From: the human T2T-CHM13v2.0 reference genome, Homo sapiens
DNA length: 64,000 nt
Strand: one strand, 5' to 3'
Assembly: GCF_009914755.1 (NCBI RefSeq)
Contig: NC_060947.1
The notes below the pieces were generated by a model that made no database searches, was not told where the DNA came from, and was given only the letters and a program-made list of their open reading frames with translations. This document shows positions 8,320 to 15,230 of the stretch, in pieces. A program made the position numbers and the translations under genes. How positions within the stretch are numbered: the stretch's first letter is position 1; every line of letters begins with the position of its first letter.

Positions 8320-10476
8320 TCCTCAGTTACCTATGACTATGTAACAAACTTCTTCATAACTTAGTGGTTTAGAATGACAACAATTCATTATGATGACTAT
8401 GTGTATTGATTGTGCAGTTCTTTTGCTCTTTGCAGTGTTAGCTAGGCTCAGTTATGTGACTGCATTCAGTTAGTGCCTGGTCTAATATCTAAGGTTCATG
8501 AAGGCTTCTTTCTCATGACTGGGCCTTGATGTTGCTTATCACCTGGGGGGCATCAATTTTACTCCACGTGGGATCTTGCTGCATATGGCAGCTCGTTCTC
8601 TAGGGCCTTGCCACATGTCTTTTGTCTCCAGCATGACAGCTGAGAGTTTCTTACAGCATGGCAACTGGGTTCCAATGGAATAAAACAAACTACCACTGAA
8701 GTCCCAGGCCCAGAACTGGTACAGTGGAACTTCTGCTATATTATATTGGTCAAAGAAAGTCACAAACTAGCCTTGCTTCAAGAGAAGGGAAGCTAGACTC
8801 TAACACTTTATGAGAGTAACAGTATGCAAGTACAGAGAAAAGAATAATTTTCATGAACATAGTTGGAGACTATCTAACACAATTCACCCACTAGCCACAA
8901 CAACTCACATCCCTTCCATATGCAAAGTGCATTCAATGTCATTTTCAACAATATCATACCACTGTAGCATTAGCTCAAAGTCGAGGGTCTCATCATCTAA
9001 AATTAGTTCAGATGAGGATGAAGATCCTTAGGTGCAGTTTGTTGATTGCAGCTGCTTAGGTATAGTTTCTCTCAAACAAGAAAACTGTAAATTAAAAATG
9101 CACGTTATCTGTCCCCCAACATGCAAAGGTGAGATAAGAATAGGAAAATTACAACAGACACATCCATCCAAAGGAGGGGATGGAAGGCACACAGTGGTCA
9201 CTGGCCCATAGCAATTCTGAAATCCACCCAGCTACATTATGTCAGGACCCCATACTCTAGTAAACCTTACAGATTTTCTACTAATCAAATTATAATCTAC
9301 TCCATTAAATGAAAGCTTCACCTATAATTATTTTCTTAACAGGCTTTCTCTAAACTGGGCCATGAGTCGAAGTGCTGTGGAACAATGGCTTTATGAATTT
9401 TTAAAGCCCCTTTGTCCAGCTGAAAGAGGATTTTTGAGGCACTGCACTAAATCATTCAGCCTCACTTTTGATTTGATCTTGATCCTGAGGCCACAGTTTA
9501 CTGGTAGTATCCTGAATTTAATGTATTCCCCAAGTTTCCTTCAAACTAAAGTCTCTTAGCAATTGAAGAGACTGTCTTAAACTCTCTACATTTTCTCCAA
9601 ATCCTTATCAAAAACTTTAACAGTTTTTTCATTAGCCTATCTTTCTTTTGCAATACATCATACAGGGCTAAGAGAAGTCAATTGGCATCTTCAACATTCT
9701 TTCTGAAAATTTAGCCAAATACATAAGTTCATTGGATTCCTTGCTACAGGCAAGAGTATTGCCAAATATTCTAACAGTGCATAACTGATTCTCCCTTTGC
9801 CAGTCTCCAACAGCATTTTCCTTACTGCTCTTCTACTCTCTAACCTCTGCCCAGTCTCAAAGCTAATGTCACATGTCTAAGTTTTTTTTTTTTTTTTTTT
9901 TTTTTTGGCAAGACCCCAGACCAGATACAAAGGTCTATCCTGTTACTTATTGATAGGTAACAAACCACCCTTAAACTTAGTGTATGAAACAACTGCTATT
10001 TACTGTTTCTTATGATTCTGCAGGTTGATTGGTGATACTTACGTTCCATTAATGTCAGCTGGAATCACTCATGTTATTGCATGGGCTGGGCTGGAAGGCA
10101 CAAGATGGCTGCTCTTGCATTTCTGAGGTCTCAGTATTGACTGTCATTGAGGATTCAATTCTACCCAATATGTCTTCTCTCTATGTGGCAGCTTATCCTC
10201 CTCATTCTCTAGGGCCTTTCTACATATCCTCTTTCTCCAGCAGGCTAGCCTAGACTTTCTTATAGCATGACATCCGGGTCTCAAGAAAGCAAAGGTGAAA
10301 TCTGTCCCTGAAGGTGTAGGCCTGGAACTCGGAAAGTCACTGGCTAGCCTACATTCAAGGGAGAGGGAAATAGACTAGTTTTTAATGGGAGAAGTGGGAG
10401 CAGCATGCATATGCATATGAATATCGAGGAATAATTGGCAATTGCTGGTAACCATATTTGGGGACTGTCTAGTACA
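8320..10476 (-). mobile_element. ERVL-MaLR (old MLT1 family) proviral remnant: LTR - internal - LTR
   Basis: Two homologous LTRs (~8320-8880 and ~9935-10476) both start with 'gttac.tat(t)ga...gtaacaaac...aacttagtg' and end 'ggaga/ggggact.tcta..aca'; MLT1-int-like sequence lies between; candidate 5-bp TSD cactc (8315-8319) / cattc (10477-10481). Confidence 0.75.
9882..9906. repeat. Poly(T)25
   Basis: Direct count. Confidence 0.95.
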
Positions 10477-11429
10477 CATTCTTTAGCATGTAGCCAACAA
10501 AGAAGGATTTCAAATTTTCAAATTTCAAGTTCAACCTTTCAAAACGTCTGAACGTATAACCTAATGTTTTGCTTCCAGGTAGAAAGGGATCTGTTACATG
10601 CATATAAATGCCTTTAGGTAAATCTTACAATGTGCCTAAAATTATTCCTTGAGATTGAAGTTTTAAATACACAAAGCAAGGAGGTATGAAGGTTTGCATT
10701 TGACCTGGGAATGCAGTCAAAGTCTGGTTTTCAACTTGTGCTTTGGCTGCAGCCTTTGGAAGGCTAAATAGCCTCTTTCCTACTTTAACATCACATGAAA
10801 GATTGTGCAATTACCTAGGTTGCCATTATATATACTTAGTGTAATAACAATGGTAATACAAATAATAGTACAATAACAGTAAGGTTATTGGGATTTATAG
10901 TTAATTTCTTGATATTCACTTTCAAATATAGATAAGCATTTTGAGTGTAACATGAAGTTAAAATCTTGTTGTGTGCTTTATTTGTTGAAATTCTAACAGT
11001 CAATTGTAATATAAATGTGTATTTTTATTGCAGAAGTAAAATCCTATAATAATTAATGATGGCTGTGAAAGCCATTAATTTTTATGTATAGAACCATTAT
11101 TAAGAATTTTCAGAGTTAAATGAATAAGGAAAAAGGTTGACAGTTATTATAAATATTATGAAAATGCATGAGGAAAATAACATTAGAAAGAACACATTTT
11201 CTTTTTTGTCTAATAATTATTTATACAATTTGAATAATAATAAGACTGAAAAAAGAGATTAGATTACATATTAATTCAAATTTAGCAGAATTGTTTGGTG
11301 TATGAACAATTATAACACCAAATAAAATAAACTTTTAAGAACTTAAAGTTTAAGAATTTAAAATATTGCTATTTACTTCCATTTAGGCAAAACATTTTTA
11401 AAAAGCCTTATTGATAATTCGTCACATCT

Positions 11430-13140
11430 TGGGAGTATGATTTAAAAGGTAAATGTCAATTTTGCCACCTCAAACTATCATAAGCAGAAAAAAAACTAAA
11501 TGATAAACTATAAATTAACTTAACAAATAACTTTTGATCCTGATATAATAAAGGATGTAAAGAATACAAAGAATAAATGTTAGAGAAAAATGAGATATCT
11601 TTATCTCATTTTGTTCCTACCATCAAACTTCAAAATAAGAGACTTTAAAATCATACATTTGGGAAGACAATTCCTTATAGATTTAAGTTTTCAGAGCCTA
11701 AAACTTTAAAACAAAAATCCTATTTAAATTATCTCTATAGAGAGCCAATCTTTTTAAGGATTTAAGAGAAAGGATTCTTGAGTTCCCTCAATTTTAACAT
11801 TTCTAAAATCCTAGGTACAAAGTTTCATCTAGAATATATTACTGAAAAAAAATCCTGAATTATATTCTGCTATCCACAAAAAGTCTAGAGATATTACTGA
11901 ATATGTGACCTCTGTATCTTGTAAATTCGACAATTGATAATTTAGAAATGAGCAGAAGTTTCTTTAAAGTTTAACTACTTGGTGGATCAATATGAATTTA
12001 ATTGTTTTTCTGCTTTACTTGCTTACCAAGGGATTTCTAGGTTTTACATAACCATTAACATACCACAGCTCGTTGATAAACTATAAAATGGAAAATTATT
12101 GAATAAAATTATAATTGTTTATATTGAAAGTTATACTGGGATCCACAATCATATAATGTCTCGTCCACTCTTTTTGGTTGTGCATTCAGAAAAAAAATTA
12201 TAGTACAGCGGAAAGGTAGTGAGACACTTTCATCATTCTTCAGCAAGAAACAGACTTCATGTCATACAAGAGATTTTGGAATGTTATTTTATATAGAGAT
12301 GCAAGCTATTTTAGAACTGCCTTACCATGTGTTTTACAAGATGTCCAAGCATGATGGAAGAAGCACTGCTACACACTTAAAAAGGCAGCTTAAATACAAG
12401 AAAGCTTTTATACCATATTTTGTAGATAATAATAGCATTGTAGAACTTAATAACAACTGATGATTGCATGTAGAGAAAGTCGTAAAGTTGCTTGAACGTG
12501 TTGAAAAAATAACATTGTGCCTGGAGAACGAAAGTGTTTCTTATATGATAGCTGATGGAAATACACTTCTATCATTCCTTTCCAGTCAAAATGCTAAGAG
12601 TGTTATCCAGGCGATGAAAGCTGAAATGCAGATGGAAATTCAGGGAAGATTTTGTCTTGAAGGCCAATAACTTAGTTTCAAAGCTAATTATTTTTCCCTA
12701 TTCCAGACTGAAGATTTAGAAATATCATTTTCTCAAGTTCTTGTTTTAAGTAGCAAATGCATGAAAAGTATTAGAAATAAACAATATAATGGGAAATCAA
12801 TTGTATTTTTGCTTCTGAAAATGTTCAGAAAGCTTCTTCTTTGAGCAGTGTATAAACATTTCCATTTGTGGAATTGCTATAATGCATTTGCATTATCACC
12901 ATCAGCCAACCATCAAGACTAGGAGTTAAAAAGGAGATAAGTCTTTACCTTAGCAATTCACTATTAAAGAGGAAGGAAAACATAATAATTTGGTGGCAAC
13001 ATCACCATCAGTATCTTACACTGACAAAGCTATCTAAAAATTTTTCTGTTTCTCTACCAACTTCAGTAAAAAGCAGGAGACTATTTAATATAATGGGAAC
13101 AAACCAGTGCTAAGCAAATTATTGTTCTTGCACTATATTA
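11430..13140 (+). pseudogene. Decayed hAT (Ac/ZBED1/ZBED4-like) transposase of an ancient DNA transposon
   Basis: Manual translation across frameshifts gives, in canonical order: WEYDLKGKCQFCHLKLS (BED finger, 11430), PRYKVSSR (11810), PELY...SVSCKFDN* (first catalytic D at 11929), SLTTWWIN, CLVHSFWLCIQ (CxxH, 12157), KVVRHFHHSSARNRLHVIQE (12213), LQDVQA*W (12334), VEKVVKLLERVEKIT...MKAEMQMEIQGRF (ORF 12464-12670), EISLYLS...WWQHHHQYLTLTKLSK...PTSVKSRRLF (12934-13086), KLLFLHY (13116). Confidence 0.88.
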
Positions 13141-13511
13141 GCATATAAATATTGATATTATCATTATTAATAATTATATTGTTAATGAGTATACTATCAT
13201 TGTCATTGCACTATATTGAACATTTAAAATCTAACCACTCAATTTTTAATGATAAAATTATAAATTTCCCCAAAAGGTAATATGATGATAGTGAGATATT
13301 CAGCTTTATATAAATGTTGATTTTAAAAGTTGACCATTTGATATTTTGCAAGATGTGTATTTGGGACATCTCTAGCAAAAAGCTAATCATGAAGATATGA
13401 TGGGGCATGGAGCAGAGAACTTAAGTTACTTAGGCAGAGAATGATAAGTCAGGAACCCAAAAATCATTGAAAATAAGGGGGTAAACCAGAGTAAGATAGC
13501 AGCAAGGTCAC

Positions 13512-13530
13512 TATATATATATATATATAT
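13512..13530. repeat. (TA)n microsatellite
   Basis: Direct reading. Confidence 0.9.
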
Positions 13531-13644
13531 GTACTACATGATGTTGAGTACCTGAACCATGCCACTAATTTTCCTAATCAACAGTCCTGTGGGCCTGAGT
13601 GGTTTCAGAGCCTGAATAGAATCCAACAAGTATTTCAGAGACAG

Positions 13645-14105
13645 TATCAGTTATCTATTTTTGCACAATAAACCATCCCAAAACGTAGTGACTTAAAGCA
13701 AAAATTACTTAATAGGTAAAACTCAAGATTCTGTGGGTCAACAATTTAGCCTAGGTCAGCTGGGCATCTCTGCTTTTGAAGGTCAGTTGGCTGGCTATTG
13801 GTTCAGGCATGTCAGCTCTCCCCTCTGTGTGGTCTCTCATCCTCCAGTAGTCGAGCTTGTGCTTGTTCACGTATTAGCTAATAGGAGTCCAAGAAAGAGT
13901 GGAAATATACAAAATCTCGAAACTGTCTCACTCTCATTTTCACCAAGTTCTACCAGCCCAGGAAAGTTCCAAAGCCAGTCCAGAGCAAAGGGTGGAGAAT
14001 TAGATTTCTCCACTCAGTGATAGGAGCTACAAAGTCACATTAAAAAGGACCTGGACACAGGGAGGGGTAAAGCATTGTAGTCATTTTTGTATTTAATCTA
14101 CCACA
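13645..14105 (-). mobile_element. MaLR LTR (MLT1I/J-like)
   Basis: 'gtatcagttatctatttttgcacaataaaccatcccaaaacgtagtgacttaaa' ... 'tttaatctaccaca'. Confidence 0.75.
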
Positions 14106-14395
14106 AGTTCATTGGCTCCAAATGTGGGGACTAGAGGGATTTGGGATCAGAGATGGCCAGGTAGCTCTGTGTAAGATAGCAATATTTAAATAGATTTCTT
14201 CACATGGTAGCTGGAATTCATTTTGGGCCAAAAAATACTTTCAAATCATTATTTAGTTGATGCCTTTAATTATGAAATCGTCTTACTCATGCTTTTGAAA
14301 CTCCTCTCTGGTAATTAGTTTATTTCAACATCACAAGTGCTACACTGAGCATATGTTGTTATACTTATTTTCCCTTTTTAGGAACAGAAACAGAG

Positions 14396-15230
<835 letters not shown>

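What the first reader, a model, noticed from the sequence alone, without database searches (positions are those of the whole stretch)
11430..13140. Cryptic, almost complete Ac/ZBED-type hAT transposase fossil in apparently unique AT-rich DNA
Seen: reading the + strand across frameshifts gives about ten hAT motifs in the right order over ~1.7 kb: PRYKVSSR, PELY, VSCKFDN* (cf. VSLTTDxW, first D), SLTTWWIN (cf. SLTAHWI), CLVHSFWLCI (cf. CFAHTLQLxV), KVVRHFHHS, LQDVQA*W (cf. QDVxTRWNST; the TGA is explicable as CpG decay of CGA), VEKVVKLLE, D*RF (cf. LDPRF) and the C-terminal domain. The ORF track shows only a 68-aa piece (12464-12670). Established: this motif set is typical of Ac-family hAT transposases and of the domesticated ZBED1/ZBED4/ZBED6 genes. 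Inference: an ancient autonomous element (OldhAT1 is one candidate) or an uncatalogued family. It is clearly non-functional here.
Basis: partly seen in the sequence, partly recalled or inferred. Interest (0 to 1): 0.8.

Follow-up and report, generated by a model that had tools for sequence, protein, structure and literature searches.

The report
Dead ancient hAT-Ac transposon copy
This stretch of human chrX is a badly decayed but nearly full-length copy of an ancient cut-and-paste (hAT, Ac-type) DNA transposon that has many equally decayed relatives elsewhere in the genome, so it is an ordinary genomic fossil.

Summary
The 76-codon frame 12883-13110 passes Pfam's cut-off for the hAT dimerisation domain. 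A frameshift-aware alignment to animal 'ZBED4-like' hAT-Ac transposases is collinear over 11810-13098: score 166 against 40±4.6 for shuffles and at most 59 in 104 other tiles of the window. It stays significant without the C-terminal domain. A profile of 66 such transposases hits only this locus in the 64 kb, positions 16-593 of 624.

The gene is dead. The best path has 11 stops and 10 frameshifts, the catalytic E is R, and the R of the RW motif is TGA.

The DNA is not unique. At least 30 loci share the 5' region and 14 share coding parts, at 67-80% identity. Some are internal-deletion derivatives. Divergence from a consensus is K2P about 0.23-0.40.

Family name unresolved: no Dfam here. OldhAT1 (hAT-Ac, 2848 bp) fits in class and size, but one OldhAT1-annotated locus showed no similarity. 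Low interest.

The parts
10677..13180 (+). Extent of the transposon copy as far as homology to other genomic copies supports it. The true 3' end may lie up to about 13265-13375.
   Evidence: nhmmer of the window element against other copies starts at 10675 (L041), 10683 (L003), 10694 (L044) and 10704 (L047). Profile hits in other copies end at positions 2519-2548, about window 13149-13178. A 20/20 match with L047 at 13244-13263 hints at a later end. Termini are not proven.
10677..11426 (+). 5' non-coding region of the element. This is the most widely shared part and is also carried by internal-deletion derivatives.
   Evidence: 30 further loci match window 10884-11390 at 67-80% identity; six copies align in register back to a YAGNGAT-like start. 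In the window this is CAAGGAGG at 10677.
11427..11594 (+). Remnant of the N-terminal BED zinc-finger region (GKCQFCH at 11448-11468).
   Evidence: Family HMM positions 16-71, E 0.92, collinear but not significant alone. The DNA-homologous copies L047, L044 and L003 carry N-terminal hits (E 4e-4, 3e-9 and 0.035).
11783..11991 (+). Start of the catalytic core: PRYKVSSR, the first-D motif region (D at 11929-11931) and SLTTWWIN.
   Evidence: Single-frame alignment of 11810-11941 to P0016 residues 87-129, score 56 against 33.8±3.9. HMM positions 134-163. First-D tally: 9 of the 17 proteins that align there.
12157..12281 (+). CxxH motif (C at 12157, H at 12166) and the KVVRHFHHS helix region.
   Evidence: C and H kept in 32 of 60 alignments. 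tblastn of P0016 residues 241-262 to 12207-12269, 54.5% identity, E 0.34. HMM positions 297-322.
12299..12655 (+). RW motif and the all-helical insertion-domain region. TGA at 12352-12354 replaces the R of RW; the W at 12355 is kept.
   Evidence: HMM positions 317-436, 27.6 bits, E 3.4e-10. R aligned to the stop in 55 of 62 alignments.
12706..12717 (+). D*RF, remnant of the LDPRF motif.
12883..13110 (+). hAT C-terminal dimerisation domain, open for 76 codons. The catalytic E is replaced by R at 13075-13077.
   Evidence: Pfam PF05699, E 4e-5, over the cut-off. 14 database proteins at E up to 1e-3. HMM positions 530-593, 30.4 bits, E 4.8e-11. E to R in 54 of 62 alignments.

Best explanation
Window about 10677-13180 (+ strand) is one decayed, nearly full-length copy of an ancient autonomous DNA transposon of the hAT superfamily, Ac clade. 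It holds about 750 bp of 5' non-coding sequence and then the remains of one transposase gene of roughly 620 codons: BED finger, RNase-H-like DDE core with its helical insertion domain, and the hAT C-terminal dimerisation domain.

When the family was active, its transposase would have bound the element ends and moved the element by cut-and-paste. That mechanism is inferred from the family (Hermes/Ac) and was not tested here. The same family left many other fragments and shorter internal-deletion (non-autonomous) derivatives across the genome.

This copy has since decayed neutrally and does nothing today as a transposon. The family is most likely already in Dfam/RepeatMasker, under OldhAT1 or another old hAT-Ac entry. 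That point was not testable here.
For: Shown. (1) Pfam hAT dimerisation domain over its cut-off. (2) Collinear frameshift-aware alignment to hAT-Ac transposases over 11810-13098. The best path, to P0052, has 419 codons, 122 identical, 11 stops and 10 frameshifts. Scores lie far above shuffles, the reverse strand, reversed protein and 104 genomic tiles. (3) A 66-protein HMM gives five collinear + strand hits covering positions 16-593 of 624 and nothing significant elsewhere in the 64 kb. (4) The comparators are bona fide hAT: Hermes at E 5.6e-24, and PF05699 in the four scanned, with a BED finger in one of them. (5) Multi-copy: 14 non-self DNA matches to the coding part and 30 to the 5' region. 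nhmmer gives E 2e-70 to 1e-19 against six other loci. Other copies carry their own transposase remnants (L003 3.7e-11, L044 3.2e-9). (6) Deletion derivatives: L047 joins profile position 986 directly to 2386. L041 and L045 have near-identical breakpoints. (7) Decay: catalytic E to R, RW arginine to TGA, GC 28.7%, 9 CpG against 73 GpC, and K2P to a leave-one-out consensus of 0.23-0.40.

Inferred: the transposition mechanism, neutral decay, and an age of roughly 100-180 My from K2P at about 2.2e-9 per site per year (recalled rate).
Against: No significant terminal inverted repeats or 8-bp target-site duplication were found. The joint scan scored 17.5 against a shuffle mean of 18.5. The best 3' candidate, ending at 13374, has p about 0.27. 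The BED region is not significant in this copy alone. Pfam found nothing but the C-terminal domain in read-through frames. The six full-length open frames among the eight human hAT-derived frames tested show no significant direct similarity. The one OldhAT1-annotated locus I could fetch (L050) shows no similarity to the element or to a 26-row family profile, so the family name is open. The DNA profile was trained on the same loci it reports, so its E-values there are circular.
Confidence: 0.93

Rival explanations
1. Same object, but from a hAT-Ac family that is absent from Dfam/Repbase: an uncatalogued ancient family, with this copy its most complete survivor.
For: No similarity to the one OldhAT1-annotated locus tested: nhmmer found no hit, the profile's best E was 1.8, and Smith-Waterman gave 12 against a null of 12.0±1.4 while a 220-nt positive control gave 44 against 15.2±1.8. 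The hub note lists no long masked stretch between 6240 and 14447.
Against: The family has at least 30 detectable relatives and deletion derivatives, which is the kind of family that repeat libraries capture. [quoted passage not shown] The L050 test is weak: one 171-nt fragment, 49% GC against 29% here, and both sequences far from any consensus. The 21% masking of the window suggests a k-mer masker, which would say nothing about old repeats (inference).
Confidence: 0.1
2. A pseudogene (duplicated or retro-copied) of a domesticated host ZBED gene and not a transposon insertion.
For: Same clade as ZBED1, ZBED4 and ZBED6 by transitivity.
Against: No significant direct similarity to the human ZBED-like frames. 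Homology to other loci extends about 750 bp upstream of the coding region, into non-coding sequence shared by at least 30 loci. Deletion derivatives that keep both ends are typical of DNA transposons. No poly(A) tail was seen after the frame.
Confidence: 0.02
3. The fossil, or part of it, has been exapted and has a present-day non-coding function, for example as a regulatory element in this gene desert.
For: None directly. The minus strand of 10970-11521 appears to have been transcribed and polyadenylated at some time, because a retro-copy of it exists.
Against: Heavy CpG loss, low GC and stops in all frames fit neutral decay (34-41 stops per frame). Conservation across species could not be examined with the tools at hand.
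Confidence: 0.04

Closest known systems
OldhAT1 (Dfam DF000001275): ancient human hAT-Ac family, 2848-bp model, Tetrapoda age, 1897 annotated human pieces
   Same: Class hAT-Ac and size fit: PMC6224067 (passage read) gives 2848 bp, and homology here spans about 2.5-2.7 kb. Extreme fragmentation and patchy conservation also fit (bioRxiv 10.64898/2026.04.14.718546, passages read). Copy number is of the right order (PMC5331655 supplement).
   Different: Identity is not shown. The one OldhAT1-annotated locus fetched (L050) has no detectable similarity. The preprint reports no full-length OldhAT1 insertion, whereas this copy spans nearly the whole coding region.
Animal 'ZBED4-like' autonomous hAT-Ac transposases (P0052, P0082, P0016, P0025 and relatives; fish, insects, hagfish, echinoderm records)
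   Same: Collinear homology from the PRY..PSR motif to the SERxFS motif, about 29% identity over 419 codons. The domain order is the same.
   Different: Those are open frames. The window copy has 11 stops, 10 frameshifts, E to R and R to TGA.
Hermes transposase (PDB 6dww, 2bw3, 4d1q, 8edg)
   Same: Nearest solved structure to the comparators (E 5.6e-24, residues 194-672 of P0052). It gives the mechanistic model: DDE RNase-H fold with an inserted helical domain, and C-terminal multimerisation.
   Different: No direct significant match of the window pieces to any PDB chain.
Human domesticated hAT-Ac genes (open frames on C22, C1 and C23; ZBED4, ZBED6 and ZBED1 by my recall of place and length)
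   Same: Same clade by transitivity: P0016-group proteins match them along their whole length, E 1e-41 to 1e-85.
   Different: The fossil itself does not match them significantly, so it is neither a copy nor the progenitor of any of them.

Membership tests
hAT superfamily | C-terminal hAT dimerisation domain (Pfam PF05699) | tested here: met
   E 4e-5, 23.8 bits against a cut-off of 21.4; 30.4 bits, E 4.8e-11 with the family HMM.
hAT superfamily | Collinear homology to the DDE/RNase-H-like core with inserted helical domain (D..W, CxxH, RW and SERxFS motifs in order) | tested here: met
   Still significant without the C-terminal domain (97 against 33.5±4.6).
hAT superfamily (active member) | Intact DDE triad and an open reading frame | tested here: not met
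   E to R at 13075; second D probably E at 12126 (8 of 11 aligned); 11 stops and 10 frameshifts on the best path. It is a fossil.
hAT superfamily | Short terminal inverted repeats and an 8-bp target-site duplication | tested here: inconclusive
   best joint score 17.5 against a shuffle mean of 18.5; best 3' candidate at 13374, p about 0.27. Six copies share a YAGNGAT-like 5' start.
hAT superfamily | N-terminal BED zinc finger | tested here: inconclusive
   not significant in this copy (29.4 against 28.4±1.3). The homologous copies L047, L044 and L003 carry N-terminal hits.
Ac clade of hAT (as opposed to Buster/Charlie or Tip100) | Closest relatives belong to the Ac/ZBED1-4-6 group | tested here: met
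   by transitivity only. No tree was built.
OldhAT1 (Dfam) | Match to the Dfam model DF000001275 | not testable with these tools
OldhAT1 (Dfam) | Similarity to a locus that RepeatMasker annotates as OldhAT1 | tested here: not met
   L050 has no hit. The test is weak because it rests on one 171-nt fragment.
Interspersed repeat family | Dispersed, diverged copies on many chromosomes | tested here: met
   K2P 0.23-0.40.

The most novel reading that the evidence does not exclude
The element belongs to a Mesozoic-or-older hAT-Ac family that no repeat library holds. This chrX copy, spanning positions 16-593 of a 624-position transposase profile, would be its most complete survivor in the human genome. 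It would then be the best template for describing that extinct transposase and its non-autonomous derivatives.
Probability: 0.1. Interest if true: 0.3.

Novelty: already known. Interest (0 to 1): 0.1.

Why it matters
It matters little. Ancient hAT fossils are a known and well-catalogued part of the human genome. The only mild points of interest are that this copy keeps almost the whole coding region of a very old family, when a preprint reports no full-length copies for the comparable family OldhAT1, and that the motif reading by eye was correct. If the family proved to be uncatalogued, it would add one entry to repeat libraries.

Tried and rejected
- PDB sequence searches with the 68-aa and 76-aa frames found nothing significant.
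- A word-indexed search with the 76-aa frame for longer proteins found none.
- A six-frame genome search with the 76-aa frame found only itself.
- Pfam on read-through frames (X at stops) found only PF05699, below its cut-off there.
- tblastn of eight human hAT-derived open frames against the window gave nothing at E below 2.8.
- The distant hAT protein P0003 matched only the C-terminal domain.
- A genome search with 13030-13430 for 3' ends found only itself.
- A search with 13090-14440 found only other, unrelated old repeats at about 13630-13795 and 13964-14112.
- TIR/TSD search: not significant. An earlier by-eye candidate target-site duplication (CACAAAGC/CAAAAAGC) was dropped, because 28 of 35,752 end pairs reach 7 of 8 matches by chance.
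- OldhAT1 identity through a published annotated fragment: no similarity, inconclusive.
- Lists of expressed OldhAT1 pieces (13 rows, 27-92 nt each) were of no use.
- The literature search for a list of human hAT-Ac families was unproductive.

Full report
**Observation.** I read 11000-13800 and listed all stop-to-stop frames.
- PRYKVSSR 11810-11833
- PELY 11854-11865
- VSCKFDN* 11914-11937
- SLTTWWIN 11968-11991
- CLVHSFWLCI 12157-12186
- KVVRHFHHS 12213-12239
- LQDVQA*W 12334-12357
- VEKVVKLLE 12470-12496
- D*RF 12706-12717
- the C-terminal domain, inside the open frame 12883-13110

All three frames are full of stops: 34, 41 and 40 in about 560 codons between 11427 and 13110.

**Is it more than chance?** Of 14 open pieces scanned against Pfam, one passes a curated cut-off. 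It is 12883-13110, PF05699 (hAT C-terminal dimerisation region), E 4e-5, 23.8 bits against a cut-off of 21.4. The other 13 pass none. Scoring that 76-residue piece against 1.84 billion representative proteins gave 14 hits at E up to 1e-3, the best 1.4e-7. All 14 align to 12883-13110 by tblastn. The eight I read carry the WW..SERxFS-type hAT C-terminus.

Through one of these hits (P0004) I reached longer relatives. From P0016 I reached 483 relatives at E up to 1e-10. The named ones among the 120 listed are mostly 'zinc finger BED domain-containing protein 4-like' from fishes, insects, a scorpion, a brittle star and a hagfish.

**Frameshift-aware test.** I wrote a local protein-to-DNA alignment that allows frameshifts: BLOSUM62, gap 7, frameshift 10.
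- P0016 residues 215-531 align collinearly to 12157-13098 with score 166.
- Controls: 60 dinucleotide shuffles gave 40.0±4.6 (maximum 54), the reverse strand 34, the reversed protein 40.
- Without the C-terminal domain (residues 215-460 against 12150-12900) the score is 97 against 33.5±4.6.
- The N-terminal part (residues 1-214 against 11000-12160) gives 56 against 33.8±3.9 (maximum 51). This is one single-frame alignment of 11810-11941 to residues 87-129.
- As a real-DNA null, 104 tiles of 2.3 kb from the rest of the window, both strands, have mean 42.5 and maximum 59. The three tiles over the locus score 166, 116 and 93.
- Over 129 database proteins the median score is 113. The best are P0082 (202) and P0052 (201, residues 204-647 against 11810-13098).

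**Family profile.** An HMM of 66 full-length relatives (624 positions) was run over all six frames of the whole 64 kb with stops as X. It gives five collinear + strand hits:

| Window | HMM positions | Score / E |
|---|---|---|
| 11427-11594 | 16-71 | E 0.92 |
| 11783-11872 | 134-163 | E 0.67 |
| 12207-12281 | 297-322 | E 0.3 |
| 12299-12655 | 317-436 | 27.6 bits, 3.4e-10 |
| 12910-13098 | 530-593 | 30.4 bits, 4.8e-11 |

Everything else in the window is noise at E 6. The spacings in DNA match the spacings in the profile.

**What it is.** The comparators are true hAT transposases. P0052 matches Hermes transposase chains at E 5.6e-24 over residues 194-672. The four comparators scanned against Pfam (P0016, P0018, P0021, P0023) all carry PF05699, and P0023 also a BED finger.

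Five comparators (P0016, P0025, P0052, P0082, P0104) were run against eight human open frames. I had fetched these through a genome-wide PF05699 search. The comparators match the 1171-, 979- and 694-residue frames on contigs C22, C1 and C23 along their whole length (E 1e-41 to 1e-85). They match the C7 frame only weakly, and the C11 and C1:34.98M frames not at all. I take those three frames to be ZBED4, ZBED6 and ZBED1 from place and length; the names are recalled and come from no tool. So the Ac/ZBED clade is supported by transitivity. The fossil itself shows no significant direct similarity to these human frames (tblastn E at least 2.8; z at most 3.5). It is therefore not a pseudogene of one of them.

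**State of the gene.** On the best path (P0052) there are 419 aligned codons, 122 of them identical, with 11 stops and 10 frameshifts. Tallied over up to 68 comparators:
- The catalytic glutamate of SERxFS aligns to arginine at 13075-13077 in 54 of 62 (8 unaligned).
- The arginine of the RW motif aligns to the TGA at 12352-12354 in 55 of 62, and the tryptophan is kept.
- The CxxH cysteine and histidine are kept at 12157 and 12166 in 32 of 60.
- The first aspartate aligns to D at 11929 in 9 of the 17 that align there.
- The second aspartate aligns to E at 12126 in 8 of 11.
- Which residues are catalytic is recalled from the Hermes literature.

The stretch is 28.7% GC against 36.9% for the window, with 9 CpG against 73 GpC.

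**BED finger.** The BED-finger stretch is not significant in this copy. The mean score over 51 N-termini is 29.4, against 28.4±1.3 for shuffles. DNA-homologous copies elsewhere keep N-terminal hits: L044 at positions 6-174 (3.2e-9), L047 at 31-72 (4.2e-4), and L003 at 4-96 (0.035) and 110-196 (3.7e-11).

**Not unique DNA.** A genome search with 11430-13140 found 14 non-self matches. One is at 93% identity and belongs to the 554-bp duplicate described under 'Seen in passing'. The other 13 are at 67-85% and lie on contigs C2, C3, C4, C7, C10, C13, C14, C17, C19 and C23. A search with 10300-11450 found 30 further loci at 67-80%, all within window 10884-11390. These counts are lower bounds by the tool's own statement.

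nhmmer with the window element against six of the fetched loci gives long hits: L006 11081-12659 at E 2.3e-70, L041 10675-11570, L047 10704-11599, L044 10694-11972, L003 in two pieces, and L004 in four.

A profile built from 26 rows shows that several copies join the 5' 900-1300 bp to the last 150 bp or so:
- L047: position 986 to 2386, directly adjacent.
- L041: 983 to 2370.
- L045: 1005 to 2386.
- L044: 1343 to 2412.
- L042: 729 to 2394, with what look like Alus (recalled) in between.

These are internal-deletion, non-autonomous derivatives, as is usual for DNA transposons. The profile was trained on these same loci, so its E-values there are circular. The junction in L047 was also seen by plain blastn.

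Divergence from a leave-one-out consensus over 998 columns with six or more copies is p 0.20-0.31, K2P 0.23-0.40. The window copy has the lowest value, probably because it seeded the alignment. At a recalled neutral rate of about 2.2e-9 per site per year this means very roughly 100-180 My.

**Ends.** Homology to other copies begins at 10675-10704. Six copies line up in register on a YAGNGAT-like start, beyond which similarity stops. In the window this is CAAGGAGG at 10677. The 3' limit is vague: profile hits end near 13149-13178, and a 20/20 match with L047 lies at 13244-13263.

A joint scan for an 8-bp duplication plus inverted termini scored 17.5 against a shuffle mean of 18.5. A weight matrix from five other copies' 5' starts picks TAGAGATGTCCC ending at 13374 as the best 3' candidate, but 27% of shuffles do as well. 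Termini are therefore not established.

**Which family?** No Dfam or RepeatMasker library is available here.
- OldhAT1 is given as hAT-Ac, 2848 bp (PMC6224067, passages read).
- It is described as Tetrapoda-age, extremely fragmented, with no full-length insertion recovered and five islands of higher conservation (bioRxiv 10.64898/2026.04.14.718546, passages read).
- It has 1897 annotated human pieces (PMC5331655, supplement row).

Class, size and decay fit this element. To test identity I located the one OldhAT1-annotated fragment whose sequence is printed in PMC6224067, using a 24-nt motif (unique hit, L050). I then compared that locus with the element:
- blastn found only what look like Alu matches (recalled) elsewhere in the locus.
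- nhmmer found no hit, and the protein HMM only a weak hit (E 0.78) away from the annotated fragment.
- The 26-row profile's best hit was E 1.8.
- Smith-Waterman gave 12 against a null of 12.0±1.4, while a same-length piece of another family copy gave 44 against 15.2±1.8.

This counts against identity, but weakly. It rests on one 171-nt fragment at 49% GC, and two copies each about 25-30% from a consensus may simply be unalignable. My estimate is OldhAT1 about 50%, another catalogued old hAT-Ac family about 40%, and uncatalogued about 10%. [quoted passage not shown] The supplement held for that paper is one PDF, which I did not open.

**Mechanism.** Shown: homology to a BED-finger plus DDE hAT transposase, loss of catalytic residues and of the frame, and dispersed relatives including deletion derivatives. 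Inferred from the family: the ancestor moved by cut-and-paste, with its transposase recognising the element ends. Short derivatives that keep both ends were mobilised in trans. This copy has decayed neutrally since.

**Seen in passing.**
- Window 10970-11521, inside the element, has a 96-97% identical copy at C23:57130850-57131400.
- That copy abuts a T-run and what I recognise from memory as the reverse complement of an L1 3' end.
- At its other end it stops about 7 nt past the complement of an AATAAA (window 10977-10982), followed by (TG)n and a T-run.
- Read on the minus strand, this is the structure of an L1 3' transduction or template switch. No L1 sits at 11522 in this assembly.

Noticed in passing
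window 10970-11521; L002 1040-1590 (C23:57130850-57131400): A 554-bp piece of the fossil has a 96-97% identical copy 36.7 Mb away on the same chromosome. On the minus strand the copy reads: L1 3' end (recognised from memory), short A-run, the 554 bp, AATAAA, then about 7 nt, (CA)n and an A-run. This is the structure of an L1 3' transduction or RT template switch. The window is the source, because homology to other hAT copies runs through both ends of the piece. No L1 lies at 11522 in this assembly, so the source L1 is absent or was never fixed.
   Followed up: partly
L047, L041, L045, L044, L042 (contigs C4, C11, C2, C5, C2): Several relatives join the 5' 900-1300 bp of the element directly to its last 150 bp or so. 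Three have near-identical breakpoints (profile positions 983-1005 to 2370-2386), pointing to a non-autonomous deletion-derivative subfamily (junction also).
   Followed up: partly
window about 13630-13795 and 13964-14112: Two stretches just downstream belong to another, much more abundant old interspersed repeat: 39 non-self genome matches at 71-87% identity. The family was not identified.
   Followed up: no
window 14447-14749: A minus-strand Alu-like element (recognised from memory) matches many fetched loci at about 80-85%. It coincides with a masked stretch in the hub note.
   Followed up: no
L027/L013 (C8:38594945-38595172): A short open frame on contig C8 keeps a hAT C-terminal piece that is 57-67% identical over about 40 residues to the animal 'ZBED4-like' transposases and passes PF05699 at 52.9 bits. 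This is far better preserved than the window's fossil. Whether it lies in a gene was not checked.
   Followed up: no
P0005 (database protein, source unknown): A 130-residue predicted protein in the representative library aligns to the window across a frameshift (residues 6-34 to 12800-12892, 36-102 to 12895-13110). It shares the family signature RKEN..IWWQHH and keeps the SER glutamate. It is probably an ORF call on a copy of the same family in another genome.
   Followed up: no
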